The notes under the pieces: generated by a model
What the model was told of the DNA's origin: nothing
Seen by the model: the letters and a program-made list of their open reading frames with translations, nothing else
Databases searched by the model: none
Part shown: positions 2,810 through 8,388 of the stretch, piece by piece
How the letters are laid out: the number at the start of each line of letters is the position of its first letter
Numbering within the stretch: the first letter of the stretch is position 1
From: Candidatus Hydrogenedentota bacterium
Lineage (GTDB): Bacteria; Hydrogenedentota; Hydrogenedentia; Hydrogenedentales; SLHB01
NCBI GenBank assembly: GCA_045863335.1
Contig: BTVY01000006.1
Coordinates: 96,001 to 160,000 of the forward strand
Reading direction: 5' to 3'
DNA: 64,000 bases
Made by a program: the position numbers and the translations under genes

Positions 2810-3096
2810 GCGTATCAAATGTCTCCGTAGGTTGGATTTCGAGAGAAACGAGTAGGAAGACCGCATTGTAAGTGGCGAGTCCAAATGATTCAAGGTTTGA
2901 CAACAAAATCCGTGCTCAAATCCGCGAAGATCTGTTTCCTTCCATGAGATTCGTGACTTTCCGCGTACTCATATTGCCGTCCCAAGTGCATCTTTTTGGA
3001 TACTTTAGGGCATTTACCCAGTGGGCCTCGCATTTGTGCAGCGCCCAGAGACGCCCGGTTTGTGAAGTGGTTATCAGGTTGCATACAATTCGGCAT

Positions 3097-5406
3097 ATGA
3101 CGGTTTTCAAGGCTTGGGCATCGTGGGCGCTCGGGATCTGTGTCGCCCTCGCGTGGGGGGTAAGCATCGCCCATGCACAAACTTATCCACCGCTGACGGT
3201 CGAGATCGGTCCCTACCATCCCCTGTTTCTTTTCCAGGCGCCGGATAGCGCCTCTGGCGACACGGAGGCCTATGCCCAGCAGATCGCAAGCGCGTGGGCC
3301 ACGTTGCCCAATGACCTGCGGCCGTATTCGGTTATGGCAGTGAACGTTTCCGGTCCGGATGCGGAAACCCGCCACCTTCGGTACACGAATCTCCTCAAGT
3401 CCCTTCAATCCTCCGAGATACCGGTCGCGATCCAGGTCGCCGATGAAAATCCTCGCAATATCTACCCCCTGGCGCAGGCCGAAGAATTGATTGCCCAGTT
3501 TACTGCGATCAAAGGAATTCAGGTTTCCAATCTCGCCTTTGACGATTACTCCACATTCGGCGGCGGTGACGACGTCGGTCTGCCCGCCAATGTCCGCTGG
3601 CTCAGCAGTGCGACCGATCTCGCCGCGCGCTACGGCCGCTTTATCGCCATCCGGCTGGACGGCACCGGCTGGCTGCACGTGTTGGCGAACGCGCAGTGCC
3701 GCCCCCTGCTGAACACCTTCCGCAATTGCAGCGCCTATGTCGTGCCGCTCGCCGGGCACGGCGCGGGCGCGACTATCGCGCAGCAAGGCGCGCTCATGGG
3801 ACTGTGGCTGGAAGGCGCGGTGGCGCAGTGGGGCGTTGCCCCGGACTCGGCTTGGTATGCGAATGCCGGATTGCTTGAGCCGGGCGTTTTCGGCGCCGCC
3901 TCGGACGGTCAGGGGATGCCTCCCTTATTGTATCGGGCCATGGTGCTGAACGGCACGATGGGCGGCGCCTGCGTGTACGCATTTCCCGAGGCCCGCGATC
4001 TTTGGGCCGGCGAACGCGTTCGGTATTGGGCCGAAGCCATCAAACCGATCCTATCACAGGTCATCCAGGGCGGCCTCATCGCCGACAAAGAATTCGTCGC
4101 GAAAAAAGCACGGGTCGCATACCAGATGGGCGTGTCGCGCACCCCTCAAGAATTCCAGCTCAACCTGCGCGACCTGGATGGCGTTCGCGACGAAGGCTTG
4201 ATGATCAAAGGCGCCTACGGCATGGAACGGCCGGGACAAATCGAGGAGCTGATCCCAAACTCGGGCCGCCACTACTGGGTGCCGATTATGTCGCCCTACG
4301 CGCCGCCCGAAGTGATGGGCGCCTTGGACCGCGTCGTCAAACCGGCCAGCATGCCTTCCGCGCAGAGTTGGACGGAACTGCTGGATCAGCATCTCGGCCC
4401 GGATGGTTCAGGTTCCGCCTTCATCGTGCGTGTGGGCCGGGGCGTCTTCGTCATGCATACGCGTGAAAGCCGCTACGAGGAACAGACGTTTCTTATCCCA
4501 TCGTTGCCCGCGCCCGTACGCGGTGTTCTCGCAAAGCGTAATGAATCGACCGTCACGCTCGAATGGCCTTTTCGCGAAGGCGACGTGTCCTACACGGTTT
4601 TCAAACGCATGTATCCGACGGGAGAGTTTGCTGAGGTCGCGAAAAACATCGACGAACGAAGCTGGACCGATCCCATCGCTGACCCCGCGCAGTCCGTTGC
4701 CTATGCGGTAACGGCGTTGACCAATGAGAAAGAGCCCTACGAAGGTACGGTCAACTTCGGCGACTACCTCGCGTTCAGCTTCGTCGAAAGCCGTATCGAC
4801 GAGGAAATTGTGCTGACCGACCTCGTCGCCCAGTCGCAGAGCCGCCCCCTGGAAGGCCCCCTCGAAATTCTGCCCAAGACGCAGGACTGGTGGCCCTCCT
4901 ACGATGGCGTGCCCGACGAACAGCGCGCCACCGCCGAGGCCATCGTGGCCCGCATCGAGCAATGGAACGAGGCCTTCGCGGCGGAAAACCTGGACGGCGT
5001 GATGGACCTCTACGGCACCGAATACCGCGATCCCCAATGGTGGCAGTTCCAATACGTCAAACGGGCTTACCAATGGTTCTTCGAACGTTACGGCGCCTGC
5101 AAAATGACCCGGCAACTTCGCCAATGGGATTTCACTGAGTTCGAGGCTAAAGGCGAGGTGCGCGCGCTCCTCTACTGCCGCTTCTCCGGATCCGCCATCA
5201 GCGATCCCACCGGCCGCTTCGCCGGCCAGACCGCCTGGTTCCCCCGAACCGAAACCGGGGAAATCTGGCTCACCTTCGCCAATCGCGAAGGCGAATGGCG
5301 CATCGAACGCAGCGATCCTGCCCTCCCCAACTTCGCCGACATCCTCAGCTTCTCCGCCGGCCCCTACGACTCGTTCCCCCCCGGCCCCGATATCTTCGGC
5401 CGGTAA
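3097..5406 (+). CDS. Secreted protein: GH98-like module + fibronectin type III domain + NTF2/SnoaL-like C-terminal domain
   Basis: Signal peptide; PLFLFQ..W..LP.DLRPYSV, GLWLEG...WGV..DS.WY, GGACVYAF and SGRHYWVP resemble GH98 M/C domains; VTLEW..Y.V.....YAVTA is FN3-like; QWNEAFAAENLDGVMDLY is NTF2-like. Confidence 0.6.
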   Translation: MTVFKAWASWALGICVALAWGVSIAHAQTYPPLTVEIGPYHPLFLFQAPDSASGDTEAYAQQIASAWATLPNDLRPYSVMAVNVSGPDAETRHLRYTNLLKSLQSSEIPVAIQVADENPRNIYPLAQAEELIAQFTAIKGIQVSNLAFDDYSTFGGGDDVGLPANVRWLSSATDLAARYGRFIAIRLDGTGWLHVLANAQCRPLLNTFRNCSAYVVPLAGHGAGATIAQQGALMGLWLEGAVAQWGVAPDSAWYANAGLLEPGVFGAASDGQGMPPLLYRAMVLNGTMGGACVYAFPEARDLWAGERVRYWAEAIKPILSQVIQGGLIADKEFVAKKARVAYQMGVSRTPQEFQLNLRDLDGVRDEGLMIKGAYGMERPGQIEELIPNSGRHYWVPIMSPYAPPEVMGALDRVVKPASMPSAQSWTELLDQHLGPDGSGSAFIVRVGRGVFVMHTRESRYEEQTFLIPSLPAPVRGVLAKRNESTVTLEWPFREGDVSYTVFKRMYPTGEFAEVAKNIDERSWTDPIADPAQSVAYAVTALTNEKEPYEGTVNFGDYLAFSFVESRIDEEIVLTDLVAQSQSRPLEGPLEILPKTQDWWPSYDGVPDEQRATAEAIVARIEQWNEAFAAENLDGVMDLYGTEYRDPQWWQFQYVKRAYQWFFERYGACKMTRQLRQWDFTEFEAKGEVRALLYCRFSGSAISDPTGRFAGQTAWFPRTETGEIWLTFANREGEWRIERSDPALPNFADILSFSAGPYDSFPPGPDIFGR

Positions 5407-5410
5407 GAGT

Positions 5411-5436
5411 TGCAGGCTGGAAGCCTGCACCACAAT
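5411..5436. repeat. REP-like palindrome (TGCAGGC-TGGAA-GCCTGCA-CCAC), copy 1
   Basis: Hairpin right after a stop codon; near-identical copy at 20935-20960. Confidence 0.65.
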
Positions 5437-5510
5437 GCTTCGCCTGTCCAGATTTTGAGGTAGGCGCGCGGCTCTTGAGCGGATCGGCTCTATACCGCCG
5501 GAAATGGAGG

Positions 5511-5539
5511 GAGCGGCGGGCCTTGGGAACCCGCCGCTC
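5511..5539 (-). terminator. GC-rich hairpin, probable terminator of the candidate ncRNA (possibly bidirectional)
   Basis: Perfect 10-bp stem GAGCGGCGGG/CCCGCCGCTC with a 9-nt loop; the U-tract is weak. Confidence 0.5.
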
Positions 5540-5548
5540 AGTGCGGGG

Positions 5549-5743
5549 AGTGCCTGAAACCGTGTTCCGTGTATCTTGGCGCAAGAGGGTCACGGTCTTG
5601 AGCTACTACTCTGAAACCATTGGGCTGCGGTCGTTGGCCTCAGTCCGCTCAGTACGTCGTGTGGACCCTATATGGTCTGGGCTGCGGAATGACTTCACGG
5701 TGCGATGAAGTCTGACCGGATCCACACATTAGTTCCAGACACT
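5549..5743 (-). ncRNA. Candidate structured non-coding RNA (family not recognised)
   Basis: 12-bp closing stem joins the 5' and 3' ends; three internal stem domains; upstream promoter puts the predicted +1 at the stem start; downstream hairpin; no credible ORF. Confidence 0.6.
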
Positions 5744-5749
5744 GAGGCG

Positions 5750-5778
5750 AGTTTACCACAACATATAGGGGCTGTCAA
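5750..5778 (-). promoter_or_regulatory. sigma70 promoter TTGACA-17bp-TAAACT (extended -10) with an NrdR-box-like site in the spacer
   Basis: Minus strand: -35 at 5778-5773, -10 at 5755-5750; spacer holds CCACAACATATAGGGG (5756-5771, plus strand). Confidence 0.7.
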
Positions 5779-5918
5779 TACCCCTCGTCGGTTTTCTCAA
5801 AGAATTTTTCTCGCGAGAATGAGCCGTAAAATGTGCTCCGAAGCGCTATTGACACTACAAGTTGGATATTTTGACTGACGCTTCGCCCTTGTAGGTCATT
5901 ACCCCGGATTCGCCACCC

Positions 5919-5934
5919 AGCCTATATATAGTGG
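5919..5934. promoter_or_regulatory. NrdR-box-like site AGCCTATATATAGTGG
   Basis: Matches consensus acaCwAtATaTwGtgt; a weaker copy lies at 5852-5867. Confidence 0.55.
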
Positions 5935-6115
5935 TCTGTAGTGCGCTGAACTGGGAGCTTCGTTCCTCGTTGTACGCCCGTTTATCTGCGGAATGCTTAC
6001 CTTTCGGCGATTTTACGGGCAGTGGAAGTTTGGCACGCCACAACCTGTTACCTCTACGGCGCGTGATATTCTGGATTCAATGGAACGCAGGGAAAATTGT
6101 AACGGGAGGTGAGTT

Positions 6116-6445
6116 ATGGCATTGCACCACGCTGCGGAGGGTGAGGTTGTGGACCTCGCCACGTGGGATGAGGATACGGCCTCTGGAGGCACGAAGGCCA
6201 TTGTGAAAACGGACAATCTGGAACTGATTCGATTGACGCTGTCGCCGCAACGGGAAATGGACACCCACCAAGTCGCGGGGCCTTCCGTCATCCATTGCCT
6301 GGATGGCCGCATCGTGGTGGACGCCATGGGCAAATCCGAGGAACTGGGGCCGGGCCAACTCATGCATCTGGCGCCGAACGAGCCACACGCCGTCCGCGCC
6401 CGGGAGGAGTCCCACGCGCTGCTGACGGTAATGTTCATCCGGTAG
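6116..6445 (+). CDS. Cupin domain protein
   Basis: HQVAGP..IHCLDG...PGQLMHL....PHAV; RBS GGAGG upstream. Confidence 0.85.
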   Translation: MALHHAAEGEVVDLATWDEDTASGGTKAIVKTDNLELIRLTLSPQREMDTHQVAGPSVIHCLDGRIVVDAMGKSEELGPGQLMHLAPNEPHAVRAREESHALLTVMFIR

Positions 6446-6533
6446 CCGCGCCTTGCCCGCCAAGCCGATCTCTGGTACCATTTGGCAGGACGTTAGATTT
6501 GCCGCAAGATACTGCGGTTTGGAGTGTTGCAGA

Positions 6534-6755
6534 ATGCCTCTCTTTGTATTTGCGTGTCAGGAATGCCACGCCGAAAACGAAATCCTGGTCCGGGGTGAGA
6601 CCGCCCCGGAATGCCCGTCCTGCGGGTCCAGAAAACTGACGAAACAAGCCAGCGCCTTCGCAGCGTTATCCGGGGGCGCTCGCCAGGCCGAGATGCCCGC
6701 AAGCTGCGGAGCAGGAAACTGCTGCCGCATGCCGGGCGGCTGCGGACTGAATTAG
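6534..6755 (+). CDS. FmdB-family zinc-ribbon protein
   Basis: MPLFVFACQEC...CPSCGSRKLTK..SAF with a Cys-rich tail. Confidence 0.85.
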   Translation: MPLFVFACQECHAENEILVRGETAPECPSCGSRKLTKQASAFAALSGGARQAEMPASCGAGNCCRMPGGCGLN

Positions 6756-6776
6756 GCCCCTTGATACAAGCAAGCA

Positions 6777-6941
6777 CGAAATTCGAATCTCGAAATCCGA
6801 AACAAATCCAGAATTCGAACGTTCTAAAAAACAATCGAAGTGGATTTGACCCATCCCATTCGACGAGATTCGAGTCGGGCCATTCTGAGTTTTGAATTTT
6901 GGTCCTTAGAATTTGTTTCGAATTTCGAGATTCGAATTTCG
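6777..6941. repeat. Gene-less element with 33-bp imperfect terminal inverted repeats built of TTCGAA-like units
   Basis: Arm CGAAATTCGAATCTCGAAATCCGAAACAAATCC (6777-6809) vs 6909-6941, 2 mismatches; related copy at 61479-61664. Confidence 0.8.
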
Positions 6942-6964
6942 GATTCTGTTAACGAGGAGTTTCC

Positions 6965-7324
6965 ATGCCCGACCACCACGACATAAAGGGCGTCAAGACC
7001 CTGGGCATGCATGTCCGCAAAGCCTGGAAGGACGCGAACCGTTCGCGGCCCTTCAGCTTCTATTTGCTGATCGCGATCATCGTCGTGCTCCTGCTCGGGC
7101 TTCAGATTGTCCACGTGAAAGAGAACCCGCGCCAGTTTGCATTCCTCCTGTCGCTCCTCTTCATCTTCTTCTTTGCCGTCATGGTGCGGGCCATTGTCGA
7201 CTTCGGCGATATCACCCGCCGCCACATGGCCGAACGGGAGCAGGTGTTCCGATCAACCCTCGGCGACGACGAATTCGTGTCGGAACTGGGCCGGCGCATC
7301 GCCGAGAACCGCGAAAAACTGTAG
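6965..7324 (+). CDS. Hypothetical two-TM membrane protein
   Basis: RBS GAGGAG, two hydrophobic helices, operon context. Confidence 0.7.
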   Translation: MPDHHDIKGVKTLGMHVRKAWKDANRSRPFSFYLLIAIIVVLLLGLQIVHVKENPRQFAFLLSLLFIFFFAVMVRAIVDFGDITRRHMAEREQVFRSTLGDDEFVSELGRRIAENREKL

Positions 7325-7371
7325 ACCGTCGTTCCGGCGCTCGTATCTTCCGGGTAGAAAACGCTATTGAC

Positions 7372-8388
7372 GTGAAGACCATCCTCGCACTCGTACCCAA
7401 CTGGATTGGCGACGTGGCCATGTGCACGCCGGCACTGCGCGCGCTGCATAAACGGCATCCGGACGCGTCGTTGATCGTCGCGGGACGCCCGGCAGCCTGC
7501 GCGTTGCTCGATGGCATCCCCTGGATTGCCGATACGGTTTCCATCGGCGGACGGGACGGTCTCTTCGGATTGTTCCAGGCCGGTTCGCTCGTTCGCCGTC
7601 GTCGTCCCGATATCGCCATCGCCTTTCCGCACTCGTTCCGTTCGGCCGCGACGGCGTGGCTGTCCGGCGCGAAGACGCGCATCGGCTACGCGCGAGGCGG
7701 ACGCTCCGCCTTCCTCACCGAACGCGTGCCGCCTCATCAAGAGAACGGAAAGATTGCACCGGTTTACATGGCGACGGAGTATCTGGACCTGGTGCTTCCC
7801 CTGGGATGCGAGGACGACGGTACAGGATTGGAGTTGGCGGCGGACCCGCTGTTGGTGGAAACCTTTAAAGATCATCTTGCCGGCGAGGGTCCGCTCGTGG
7901 GATTCGCGCCGGGCGCCGCCTTCGGTCCAAGCAAGCTTTGGCCGGCCGAACGCTACGCCGCCGTGGCCGACGCGCTTCACGAACGTTGCGGCGCGCGTTG
8001 CCTGCTGCTCACCGGCCCCGGCGAGGAAACGACACGCGACGCCGTCCTCGCCCACGCGAGGTACCCGCTGCTCCGTCCTCCGCAACCGCCCACCATCCCG
8101 GCGCTCAAAGCCGCCGTCTCGCTGCTGGACCTCCTGATTGGCAACGACTCCGGCTCGCGCCACGTGGCCGTTGCGTTCAAGGTCCCTACGATCTGCATCA
8201 TGGGCCCGACCGCGCCCGTATACAGCGAAGGCCCCTACGAACGCGGCGAAGTCCTCCGGGTCGACGTCGACTGCGGCCCCTGCCAGAAGCCCGTCTGCAC
8301 CACCGACCACCGCTGCATGACCCGCATCGATGCCGAGCGCGTGACGAATGAGGCGATGGAGTGGCTGGCGAAACAACGCGCCATGTAG
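7372..8388 (+). CDS. waaF: LPS heptosyltransferase II (GT9)
   Basis: PNWIGDVAM, PGAAFGPSKLWP, NDSG..HVA, CGPC motifs; GTG start. Confidence 0.88.
   Translation: MKTILALVPNWIGDVAMCTPALRALHKRHPDASLIVAGRPAACALLDGIPWIADTVSIGGRDGLFGLFQAGSLVRRRRPDIAIAFPHSFRSAATAWLSGAKTRIGYARGGRSAFLTERVPPHQENGKIAPVYMATEYLDLVLPLGCEDDGTGLELAADPLLVETFKDHLAGEGPLVGFAPGAAFGPSKLWPAERYAAVADALHERCGARCLLLTGPGEETTRDAVLAHARYPLLRPPQPPTIPALKAAVSLLDLLIGNDSGSRHVAVAFKVPTICIMGPTAPVYSEGPYERGEVLRVDVDCGPCQKPVCTTDHRCMTRIDAERVTNEAMEWLAKQRAM

What the first reader, a model, noticed from the sequence alone, without database searches (positions are those of the whole stretch)
5511..5778. Candidate novel ~195-nt ncRNA transcribed from an NrdR-box-controlled promoter
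Seen: a minus-strand TTGACA-17-(TGn)TAAACT promoter puts +1 near 5743. There AGUGUCUGGAAC starts a 12-bp stem with GUUUCAGGCACU (5560-5549). Inside are GUGUGGAUCC/GGGUCCACAC (5727-5718 / 5668-5659) enclosing GGUC/GACC and GACUUCA/UGAAGUC; a CUGA/UCAG domain with GCGG/CCGC; and CCGUG/CACGG with UCUUG/CAAGA. G-U pairs work only on the minus strand. The decamer CCGCAGCCCA occurs twice (5678-5687, 5621-5630). A 10-bp hairpin follows and the next gene is convergent, so this cannot be a 5' leader. The promoter spacer is filled by a strong NrdR-box match. Established: NrdR represses ribonucleotide reductase operons in response to ATP/dATP. Inference: a stand-alone structured RNA responding to dNTP status. 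I do not recognise it as 6S, SRP, tmRNA, RNase P or a riboswitch.
Basis: partly seen in the sequence, partly recalled or inferred. Interest (0 to 1): 0.82.

Follow-up and report, generated by a model that had tools for sequence, protein, structure and literature searches.

The report
New conserved small RNA of Hydrogenedentota
This is a real, previously uncatalogued, roughly 240-base structured RNA gene found in most genomes of the uncultured phylum Hydrogenedentota, and its promoter always carries one binding box of the kind used by NrdR, the repressor of DNA-precursor genes.

Summary
On the minus strand, a sigma-70 promoter (5778-5750) is followed by a ~242-nt RNA (about 5743-5502). It has a 13-bp closing stem, three internal hairpin domains, a C-rich linker and a 12-bp GC-rich 3' hairpin.

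It folds better than shuffles (z -4.5). It is single-copy and has no Rfam 15 match. 6S, SRP, RNase P and tmRNA lie elsewhere in the genome.

A covariance model finds it in 113 of 135 genomes of the phylum. On 46 distinct sequences, 56 of 69 pairs show compensatory changes.

Neighbouring genes differ between clades, so it is a stand-alone RNA, not a leader.

The promoter spacer holds a 16-bp box that meets all six conserved NrdR-box positions. The box sits at the same place in 57 of 59 distinct loci. The genome's own ribonucleotide reductase promoter has a canonical tandem pair, and nrdR is present.

The RNA promoter, however, has only one box, and studied NrdR proteins need two. NrdR control is therefore plausible but unproven.

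Function is unknown. My best guess is a trans-acting regulatory sRNA with C-rich, anti-Shine-Dalgarno-like exposed motifs. No conserved target was found.

The parts
5773..5778 (-). -35 hexamer TTGACA
   Evidence: Promoter scan. TTGACA, or a one-mismatch variant, was required by the scan within 10 nt upstream of the box, and is seen 0-2 nt upstream of it in all 57 listed loci.
5756..5771 (-). Single 16-bp NrdR-type box CCCCTATATGTTGTGG filling the promoter spacer
   Evidence: It meets C4, A6, A8, T9, T11 and G13 of the consensus in PMC13584703. It sits at the same position in 57 of 59 distinct loci. No second box lies at a canonical distance.
5750..5755 (-). -10 hexamer TAAACT, preceded by TG (extended -10)
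   Evidence: TAnnnT follows the box directly in all 57 loci listed.
5502..5743 (-). Predicted transcript, about 242 nt. The +1 is inferred from promoter geometry and the 3' end from the U run; neither end has been mapped.
   Evidence: Fold; covariance model R1. Contigs from RNA libraries cover 5544-5769 (X3), 5542-5734 (X4) and 5529-5795 (X2).
5731..5743 (-). P1 closing stem, 5' arm (conserved GGUGUYUG)
   Evidence: Helix 1 has 13 pairs, 11 of them with compensatory changes, and 94.5% of cells paired.
5549..5561 (-). P1 closing stem, 3' arm (conserved YCAGACAC)
5659..5727 (-). Domain 1: a long hairpin with inner stems. CCGCAGCCCA (5687-5678) lies in an internal loop. The domain is variable and is absent in the short (160-197 nt) forms of distant families.
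   Evidence: Helices 2-4 show 9 of 9, 1 of 4 and 8 of 8 pairs with compensatory changes. Absence in short forms.
5599..5651 (-). Domain 2: a hairpin whose terminal loop shows CCGCAGCCCA (5630-5621). CAGCCCA is conserved across most of the phylum sample.
   Evidence: Helices 5 and 6 show 4 of 4 and 9 of 9 pairs with compensatory changes. Alignment.
5567..5595 (-). Domain 3: a hairpin holding CCGUGACCCUCUUGCGCCAAG (5595-5575), nearly invariant within the family. In distant homologues UUGCGCC lies in the loop.
   Evidence: This helix has little covariation because it hardly varies (helices 7-8).
5542..5552 (-). Single-stranded C-rich linker CACUCCCCGCA
   Evidence: Unpaired in the MFE fold. Invariant or nearly so.
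5511..5539 (-). 3' hairpin with a 12-bp GC-rich stem and a conserved loop containing CCCAAG
   Evidence: Helix 9 has 12 pairs, 10 with compensatory changes.
5502..5510 (-). 3' tail CCUCCAUUU: a C-rich anti-Shine-Dalgarno-like stretch followed by a short U run
   Evidence: The terminator scan did not list this site; by my reading the U run starts 6 nt after the stem.

Best explanation
This is the gene of a stand-alone structured small RNA of about 242 nt (160-260 nt across the phylum). It occurs once per genome and is conserved through the candidate phylum Hydrogenedentota.

Shown:
- The sequence and a four-way-junction fold (a closing stem P1 enclosing three hairpin domains), followed by a C-rich linker and a GC-rich 3' hairpin, are conserved with abundant compensatory changes.
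- The flanking genes vary between clades.
- The promoter is a near-consensus sigma-70 promoter whose spacer is filled by one 16-bp NrdR-type palindrome.

Inferred, in decreasing order of confidence:
1. It is transcribed as an abundant discrete RNA.
2. A repressor binding the palindrome, most likely NrdR, occludes RNA polymerase. The RNA would then be made together with ribonucleotide reductase and other DNA-synthesis and cell-division genes that carry such boxes, when the dATP signal is low.
3. The RNA acts in trans through its exposed, highly conserved C-rich elements: CAGCCCA loops, the UUGCGCC loop, the CUCCCCGCA linker, the CCCAAG loop and the CCUCC tail. These would pair with G-rich ribosome-binding regions of mRNAs.
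For: Reality of the RNA
- Fold z -4.5 on the minus strand against -2.0 on the plus strand.
- One copy in the genome.
- Found in 30 of 41 relatives by blastn and in 113 of 135 phylum genomes by model R1; 75 of 86 among high-quality genomes.
- On 38 distinct sequences, 92.6% of cells are paired against 34-44% when partners are slid, 42 of 69 pairs have compensatory changes, and 0 of 500 shuffles reach this.
- On 46 distinct sequences that include distant families, the figures are 90.9%, 56 of 69 and 0 of 500.

Not a known RNA
- No Rfam hit at gathering score in the window.
- Nothing credible at E up to 10.
- Nothing on the RNA in 20 distant homologue loci.
- SRP, 6S, RNase P and tmRNA are at other contigs.

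Stand-alone
- In 22 of 59 distinct loci the upstream neighbour is a divergent zinc-ribbon gene, with a small membrane protein gene found in 21 of the 59. A GT9 gene follows in the window and two tested loci.
- In other families the neighbour is an alanine dehydrogenase/PNT-family gene.
- Downstream genes differ, and the one here is convergent.

Expression
- RNA-library contigs from separate studies cover the RNA and little else. X3 has a 228-nt contig at depth 60, X4 a 196-nt contig at depth 16, and X2 a 314-nt contig plus one separate piece at 5200-5354.

Operator
- The box meets all six conserved NrdR positions.
- It sits at a fixed place in 57 of 59 loci.
- nrdR is present in G000 and in 5 of 5 other genomes tested.
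- The RNR promoter has a tandem pair with a 15-bp linker, and its box 2 is kept in 7 of 9 relatives' RNR loci.
- Tandem box pairs also precede thyX, gyrB, mraZ and ftsK.

C-rich pairing idea
- The P3, linker and tail segments pair slightly better with 5265 predicted translation start regions than each of 5 shuffles of the same segment.
Against: - Only one box is present. No partner with at least 5 of 6 key positions occurs at any given offset in more than 2 of 57 loci. Published work says NrdR of E. coli and S. coelicolor cannot bind a single box (PMC13584703 section 6; PMC12051234 discussion).
- The six-position criterion alone is weak: 934 16-mers in the genome meet it.
- Transcript ends are not mapped. 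The X3 contig reaches 26 nt upstream of the predicted +1. X1 covers the flanks too, so DNA carry-over cannot be excluded. Contigs cannot give the strand.
- The 3' hairpin is not followed directly by a U run, and the terminator scan does not list it.
- No conserved target was found. The best start-region match (a MoxR-type ATPase, 12 nt) holds only within the genus. Pairing to the RNR Shine-Dalgarno region is seen in 4 of 8 genomes only.
- The complement of the invariant 12-mer is not enriched: 106 hits, of which about 30 by my estimate are the RNA gene itself, against 74 control hits in 41 genomes.
- The loops carrying CAGCCCA show no better pairing to start regions than shuffles.
Confidence: 0.6

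Rival explanations
1. The RNA is real but works by binding a protein, as a sponge or as the scaffold of a ribonucleoprotein, rather than by base pairing. The repeated exposed C-rich motifs (GCAGCCCA twice, UUCCCAAGG, GCGCCAAG) would be binding sites for one RNA-binding protein.
For: Related CCCA/CCAAG-type motifs sit in three or four hairpin or internal loops. The hairpin holding CUCUUGCGCC and the 3' hairpin with its loop are conserved far beyond what a terminator needs. No conserved mRNA target was found.
Against: No candidate protein is linked by gene order across the phylum; neighbours change between clades. The frequent neighbours in two families are a small zinc-ribbon protein and a small membrane protein, and no RNA-binding family was matched. 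Nothing here tests binding.
Confidence: 0.25
2. The palindrome in the promoter is not an NrdR operator in practice. Either another factor binds it or a single box is not bound at all. The RNA would then be a constitutive or otherwise regulated RNA with no link to dNTP supply.
For: There is a single box with no canonical partner. Studied NrdR proteins need two boxes (PMC13584703 section 6; PMC12051234 discussion). One genome (G023) keeps the RNA and nrdR but has lost the box.
Against: The box has the same extended CCAC...GTGG form as box 2 of the genome's own RNR tandem site. It is kept at a fixed position in 57 of 59 loci while the rest of the upstream region drifts. Sigma-70 contacts do not explain conservation of the whole spacer.
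Confidence: 0.35
3. It is a cis-acting leader or riboswitch for a downstream gene.
For: In three loci of family f3 or close to it (L137, L138, L053) an alanine dehydrogenase/PNT-family gene lies downstream in the same orientation.
Against: In the window the downstream gene is convergent. Downstream genes differ between clades. The same AlaDh/PNT gene is upstream and divergent in 11 other loci. The RNA ends in a conserved strong hairpin in all 46 aligned sequences.
Confidence: 0.03
4. It is not an RNA gene. Instead it is a conserved protein-coding or DNA-level element.
For: Mechanical ORFs overlap it: 5345-5593 on the minus strand (82 aa) and 5295-5708 on the plus strand (137 aa).
Against: Those ORFs have no Pfam match. 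Substitutions keep base pairs rather than codons. Insertions and deletions of many lengths occur inside the domains.
Confidence: 0.02

Closest known systems
Phylum-restricted orphan structured sRNAs catalogued in Rfam, for example Acido-1, Acido-Lenti-1 and Bacteroidales-1 (class recalled; Acido-1 and Acido-Lenti-1 appeared only as sub-threshold hits)
   Same: A stand-alone gene with its own promoter and 3' hairpin, a multi-stem conserved fold, restriction to one phylum, and unknown function.
   Different: No sequence or structure match to any of the 4227 Rfam 15 families. The promoter carries a conserved repressor box, which I do not recall being described for those families.
NrdR operators at ribonucleotide reductase promoters
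   Same: A 16-bp partly palindromic box with C4, A6, A8, T9, T11 and G13, overlapping the RNA polymerase binding site. The host has nrdR.
   Different: Known sites are two boxes 15-16 bp (or 24-27 bp) apart and drive RNR operons. Here there is one box and it drives a non-coding RNA.
C-rich base-pairing sRNAs of Firmicutes such as RsaE/RoxS (recalled, not tested)
   Same: Several unpaired C-rich motifs that could pair with G-rich Shine-Dalgarno regions. Stand-alone gene with a 3' hairpin.
   Different: No homology. This RNA is more than twice as long, has a four-way junction, and has a different presumed regulator. No target has been shown.
6S RNA
   Same: Similar size, single copy, abundant-looking small RNA with paired 5' and 3' ends.
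   Different: The genome's 6S RNA is at C46:60020-60205. This RNA has a branched junction, not a central bubble.
CsrB/RsmZ-type protein-titrating RNAs (recalled)
   Same: A short motif repeated in several hairpin loops.
   Different: The motif is C-rich (CAGCCCA, CCCAAG), not GGA. There are only three or four copies. No partner protein is known.

Membership tests
Any Rfam 15 family | Score at or above the family's gathering threshold | tested here: not met
   0 matches in the whole window. The best overlapping sub-threshold hits cover only the 3' hairpin region (CC1840 5511-5566, 21 bits against 50; Xoo2 5507-5555, 17 bits against 45). Nothing on the RNA in 20 distant homologue loci.
NrdR binding site | 16-bp box with conserved C4, A6, A8, T9, T11 and G13 | tested here: met
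   CCCCTATATGTTGTGG at 5771-5756 has all six (consensus from PMC13584703 section 7). A box with at least 5 of 6 key positions was found in 57 of 59 loci.
NrdR binding site | Two boxes separated by a 15-16 bp (or 24-27 bp) linker | tested here: not met
   At those linkers on either side, at most 2 of 57 loci have a partner with 5 or more of 6 key positions. None is present in the window.
NrdR binding site | Overlaps the RNA polymerase binding site of the regulated promoter | tested here: met
   The box fills the spacer between -35 and -10.
NrdR binding site | NrdR encoded in the genome, and the same box type at its RNR genes | tested here: met
   TIGR00244 match of 200.9 bits at C10. Tandem ACGCAAAATTTGGTAT-15-CCACAGTATATTGTGG lies upstream of the RNR large subunit.
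NrdR binding site | Nucleotide-dependent binding of NrdR protein | not testable with these tools
   Needs EMSA or microscale thermophoresis with the protein.
Intrinsic (rho-independent) terminator | GC-rich stem-loop directly followed by a U run | tested here: inconclusive
   The stem is 12 bp and GC-rich. The U run (3 U here, up to about 7 in relatives) starts after a 5-6 nt C-rich spacer. The terminator scan did not list it.
6S, SRP, RNase P, tmRNA | Being the genome's copy of that universal RNA | tested here: not met
   All four are found above threshold at other contigs: C46, C39, C28 and C42.
Riboswitch or cis-regulatory leader | Conserved position upstream of a functionally related gene in the same orientation | tested here: not met
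   The downstream gene is convergent here and varies elsewhere.
Base-pairing sRNA | Conserved complementarity between an exposed seed and orthologous mRNA sites | tested here: inconclusive
   Only genus-level matches were found. There is no excess of the 12-mer complement. The search was crude: no accessibility model, own gene calls, and only one genome scanned in full.

The most novel reading that the evidence does not exclude
This is the first non-coding RNA member of an NrdR regulon. It is controlled through a single NrdR box, a binding mode not seen for the NrdR proteins studied so far. When the dATP signal falls, the RNA would be made together with ribonucleotide reductase, ThyX, GyrB, FtsK and the MraZ-led division cluster. 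It would then tune translation of replication or division genes, coupling DNA-precursor supply to the cell cycle throughout a whole uncultured phylum.
Probability: 0.25. Interest if true: 0.8.

Novelty: new variant of a known kind. Interest (0 to 1): 0.64.

Why it matters
Hydrogenedentota are common in sludge, sediment and groundwater but are known here only from metagenome-assembled genomes, and my literature searches found no description of their regulatory RNAs. This locus gives the phylum a well-supported, nearly universal structured RNA family that could be added to RNA family catalogues and used to annotate its genomes.

The fixed NrdR-type box in its promoter raises two testable questions. 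Does the NrdR regulon reach beyond protein genes to an RNA regulator? Can some NrdR proteins act at one box? The second bears on current work on how NrdR reads DNA.

The apparent spread of tandem boxes to thyX, gyrB, ftsK and mraZ in the same genome suggests a wider DNA-synthesis and cell-division regulon than in model bacteria.

Tried and rejected
Tried and led nowhere

- Full-length RNA-RNA duplex folding of the sRNA against RNR leaders gave meaningless end-to-end duplexes. I replaced it by a search for contiguous complementarity. That showed sRNA CCUCUUGCGC pairing with the RNR Shine-Dalgarno region GUGCAGGAGG in 4 of 8 genomes, all of one genus. This is too weak to claim.
- I made a crude gene call (5266 genes) and scored six exposed sRNA segments against 5265 start regions. 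The best hit was a MoxR-type AAA ATPase. Its match is conserved only within the genus in 25 orthologous loci. By my estimate, about one 12-mer match is expected by chance. Rejected as a target.
- The 12-mer complement of the invariant hairpin motif gave 106 hits in 41 genomes, about 30 of them (my estimate) the RNA gene itself, against 74 for the reversed control. There is no enrichment. Seven of the extra loci had no model match.
- I asked whether loss of the box in G023 goes with loss of nrdR. It does not; nrdR is present in 5 of 5 genomes tested.
- I looked for a second NrdR box at any offset from 5 to 39 bp on either side and found none that is consistent. A peak at +8 bp is the conserved 5' end of the RNA itself, and its middle is GC-rich.
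- Literature: five paper queries, two of them with loosely matching terms, found no paper describing an NrdR-controlled small RNA or any Hydrogenedentota non-coding RNA. Subscription journals are not covered, and supplements were closed and not consulted.
- RNA-library contigs cannot give strand or ends. The parts of the window without cover in X2-X4 are not evidence of silence.

Considered and rejected

- 6S, SRP, RNase P, tmRNA.
- Cis leader.
- Small-protein gene: the only AUG-led frame is not conserved in the alignment.
- Y RNA was considered from memory only. No Rfam Y-RNA family matched, and the Ro protein gene was not searched for.
Full report
WHAT IS THERE

These are the promoter TTGACA(5778-5773)-17 nt-TAAACT(5755-5750) with a TG before the -10, a closing stem between 5743-5731 and 5561-5549, the inner helices, the two copies of CCGCAGCCCA (5687-5678 and 5630-5621), and a hairpin at 5539-5511. 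The hairpin is 12 bp rather than 10.

The promoter scan finds exactly this one promoter-like site in 5000-6500. The plus strand gives z -2.01 and an unstable fold.

The long ORF downstream (2872-5406, +, weak glycoside-hydrolase match) is convergent. The short ORFs overlapping the RNA have no Pfam match.

IS IT A KNOWN RNA?

No. The whole window has no Rfam 15 match at gathering thresholds. A permissive scan of 5200-6100 gives only sub-threshold hits to the 3' hairpin. Twenty distant homologue loci also give nothing on the RNA.

The genome's SRP RNA (C39), 6S RNA (C46), RNase P RNA (C28) and tmRNA (C42) are all found above threshold elsewhere.

WHOSE GENOME, AND HOW WIDESPREAD IS THE RNA?

An exact-pattern scan of one genome per GTDB species with the most conserved 19-mer returned 58 stretches. 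Of these, 34 hold the full RNA. Twenty-six of the 34 are labelled Candidatus Hydrogenedentota, Hydrogenedentes or Hydrogenedentales. The other eight carry other labels (see Noticed in passing). The 24 stretches from other phyla have no model match, which fits chance 19-mers.

The RNA is single-copy in the window's genome. By blastn it is present in 30 of 41 relatives, including 22 of 24 genomes of the same family.

I built a covariance model from 20 sequences with the single-sequence fold as structure. It finds the RNA in 113 of 135 genomes of the phylum sample, 75 of 86 among those at least 90% complete, and in 55 of 66 genera. The 22 genomes without a match include incomplete ones, so absence is not shown. 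In distant families the RNA is 160-197 nt because the first, variable domain is missing.

IS THE STRUCTURE REAL?

On the model-guided alignment of 54 matches (38 distinct), 92.6% of cells form standard pairs, against 34-44% when partners are slid by 1-3 columns. Forty-two of 69 pairs show changes on both sides, and no shuffle of 500 reaches any of the five measures.

On 46 distinct sequences chosen to include the distant families, the figures are 90.9%, 56 of 69 pairs, and 0 of 500. The closing stem has 11 of 13 pairs with compensatory changes, domain 2 has 9 of 9 in its main helix, and the 3' hairpin has 10 of 12.

These alignments are fitted to the model, which favours the structure. However, RNAalifold on a plain MAFFT alignment independently recovered P1, domain 2, the outer helix of domain 3 and the 3' hairpin, with 12 covarying pairs.

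Frequent G-U pairs fix the strand.

The core conserved across the phylum is:
- GGUGUYUG and YCAGACAC (P1)
- a hairpin loop with CAGCCCA
- a hairpin with CUCUUGCGCC
- the linker YCCCCGCA
- a 3' hairpin GCGGYGGG-(loop with CCCAAG)-CCCRCCGC
- a CCYUCC tail before a U run.

STAND-ALONE OR LEADER?

Neighbours differ by clade. In 22 of 59 distinct loci (families f1 and f3) the RNA is divergent from a small FmdB-type zinc-ribbon gene; a small membrane protein gene is found in 21 of the 59, and a GT9 glycosyltransferase follows in the window and two tested loci. In the window a cupin gene has been inserted between them.

In 11 loci of other families the divergent neighbour is an alanine dehydrogenase/PNT-family gene. 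In three loci that gene lies downstream instead. Downstream genes are otherwise unrelated.

Together with its own promoter and 3' hairpin, this makes it an independent transcription unit.

EXPRESSION

Twenty public runs hold part of the stretch, ten of them recorded as RNA. I laid contigs of four RNA libraries from four studies on 5200-6100.

- X3 has one 228-nt contig at 5544-5769, depth 60.
- X4 has one 196-nt contig at 5542-5734, depth 16.
- X2 has a 314-nt contig at 5529-5795 that then runs into unlike sequence.
- X1 covers the whole stretch at low depth and may contain DNA.

This fits an abundant discrete RNA, but contigs give neither strand nor ends. The X3 contig runs 26 nt upstream of the predicted start. 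Two studies stopping 3-5 nt before the 3' hairpin is only a weak hint. It could reflect poor cover of a structured 3' end.

THE PROMOTER BOX

Published work defines the NrdR box as a 16-bp partly palindromic sequence. Positions C4, A6, A8, T9, T11 and G13 are highly conserved, and the box normally occurs as a pair with a 15-16 bp linker, overlapping the RNA polymerase site (PMC13584703: abstract and sections 3, 5-10 read as passages or whole sections).

The spacer sequence CCCCTATATGTTGTGG (5771-5756) meets all six positions. In 57 of 59 distinct loci the same arrangement holds: TTGACA, 0-2 nt, 16-bp box, TAnnnT. One locus (G023) has lost the box and one is cut by a contig end. Upstream sequence otherwise drifts freely.

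The six-position rule alone is weak, because 934 16-mers in the genome meet it. The longer palindrome CACWAYATDTWGTG with at most one mismatch occurs only 19 times.

nrdR is present (also in 5 of 5 other genomes). The genome's RNR large-subunit gene, which has two ATP-cones, is preceded by a canonical pair, ACGCAAAATTTGGTAT-15 bp-CCACAGTATATTGTGG, overlapping its promoter. Box 2 is kept in 7 of 9 relatives' RNR loci. So the box type is this organism's NrdR box.

The difficulty is that the RNA promoter has only one. No partner with at least 5 of 6 key positions appears at any given offset from 5 to 39 bp, on either side, in more than 2 of 57 loci. The same authors state that E. coli and S. coelicolor NrdR do not bind isolated boxes (PMC13584703 section 6; PMC12051234 discussion).

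The strict conservation of a whole-spacer palindrome argues that something binds it, and NrdR is the obvious candidate. Binding at one box would be a departure from what is known.

WHAT MIGHT THE RNA DO?

Nothing tested here settles this. The strongly conserved bases are mostly unpaired and C-rich: the CAGCCCA loops, the UUGCGCC loop, the CUCCCCGCA linker, the CCCAAG loop and the CCUCC tail. The last resembles the anti-Shine-Dalgarno end of 16S rRNA (recalled).

Against 5265 predicted start regions, the P3, linker and tail segments pair slightly better than all five shuffles of each. The two CAGCCCA segments do not.

The RNR start region ranks 48th of 5265 for the linker. The invariant CCUCUUGCGC can pair with the RNR Shine-Dalgarno region, but only in 4 of 8 genomes. 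The top hit, a MoxR-type ATPase, is conserved only within the genus. The 12-mer complement of the invariant motif is not enriched in 41 genomes.

I therefore commit, with low confidence, to a trans-acting base-pairing sRNA aimed at G-rich ribosome-binding regions. I keep protein binding as a serious rival.

REGULON CONTEXT

Tandem box pairs by the six-position rule also lie upstream of several other genes:
- thyX (C26), gyrB (C22) and mraZ (C33)
- ftsK (C33)
- a fliQ-fliR-flhB cluster (C9)
- some genes with no obvious link.

Many pairs in that list are surely chance. Still, RNR, ThyX, GyrB, FtsK and MraZ together suggest a DNA-synthesis and division regulon into which this RNA would fit.

NOVELTY AND VERDICT

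The RNA family is new to Rfam 15. Five literature searches found no description of it. These cover open-access papers and bioRxiv only, and supplements were not available.

As a kind of thing, a phylum-restricted stand-alone structured sRNA is familiar. The fixed NrdR-type single box in its promoter is the unusual part.

Noticed in passing
G000 contigs C26:57365, C22:56780, C33:35401, C33:25965, C9:56233, C39:62055 (loci L159, L161, L160, L087, L083, L088): Tandem NrdR-type box pairs (at least 11 of 12 key positions, linker 15-16 or 25 bp) lie upstream of thyX, gyrB, mraZ, ftsK and a fliQ-fliR-flhB cluster as well as the RNR gene. This hints at an NrdR regulon that reaches DNA topology, cell division and flagellar export. 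The criterion is loose (53 pairs genome-wide), so some are chance.
   Followed up: partly
window 5919-5934: A second isolated 16-mer meeting all six NrdR key positions (CCACTATATATAGGCT on the minus strand) lies 163 bp upstream of the RNA's box, between the RNA promoter and the cupin gene. No partner box lies beside it by eye. Its conservation in relatives was not checked.
   Followed up: no
window 5780-7400: The apparent 1.5-kb gap upstream of the RNA is not empty. On the plus strand it holds a cupin gene (6116-6445), a 73-aa FmdB-type zinc-ribbon gene (6534-6755) and a 119-aa two-helix membrane protein gene (6965-7324). The 491-aa 'GT9' ORF from 6913 is probably too long at its N-terminus, because the conserved 119-aa gene overlaps it in another frame.
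   Followed up: partly
window 6777-6828 and 6890-6941: A 52-nt AT-rich inverted repeat (79% complementary, 61 nt apart), built of TTCGAA-like units, sits between the zinc-ribbon gene and the membrane protein gene. Its meaning is unknown.
   Followed up: no
L040, L047, L052, L076, L077, L078, L031, L050: Eight contigs that carry the RNA are labelled uncultured Nitrospiraceae, FCB group or uncultured bacterium in their records. For at least six (L031, L040, L050, L076, L077, L078), coordinates and scores match contigs of genomes that the genome search places in the window's own family or order (L047 by score only; L052 not matched). The record labels and the GTDB placement therefore disagree.
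   Followed up: partly
L143 (G000:C39:62101-62400) and L151:4434-4643: The RNR gene of G000 has a ~280-nt leader, similar in the four same-genus relatives aligned, with no Rfam match. The leader begins with ACCGCAG, which recalls the sRNA's CCGCAG motif. In G027 the orthologous gene instead has a cobalamin riboswitch (123.8 bits).
   Followed up: partly
G000:C23:92869 (L162): Another promoter of the same design as the RNA's (TTGCTC, 2 nt, CACCATATATTGTGG, TACATT) has about 570 nt before the next same-strand ORF, which has no Pfam match. It could drive another non-coding transcript. The covariance model finds no paralogue of the RNA there.
   Followed up: no
L123:968-1012: A sub-threshold match to Acido-Lenti-1 RNA (28.8 bits against a gathering score of 37, E 0.015) lies about 500 nt from the sRNA in G039.
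   Followed up: no
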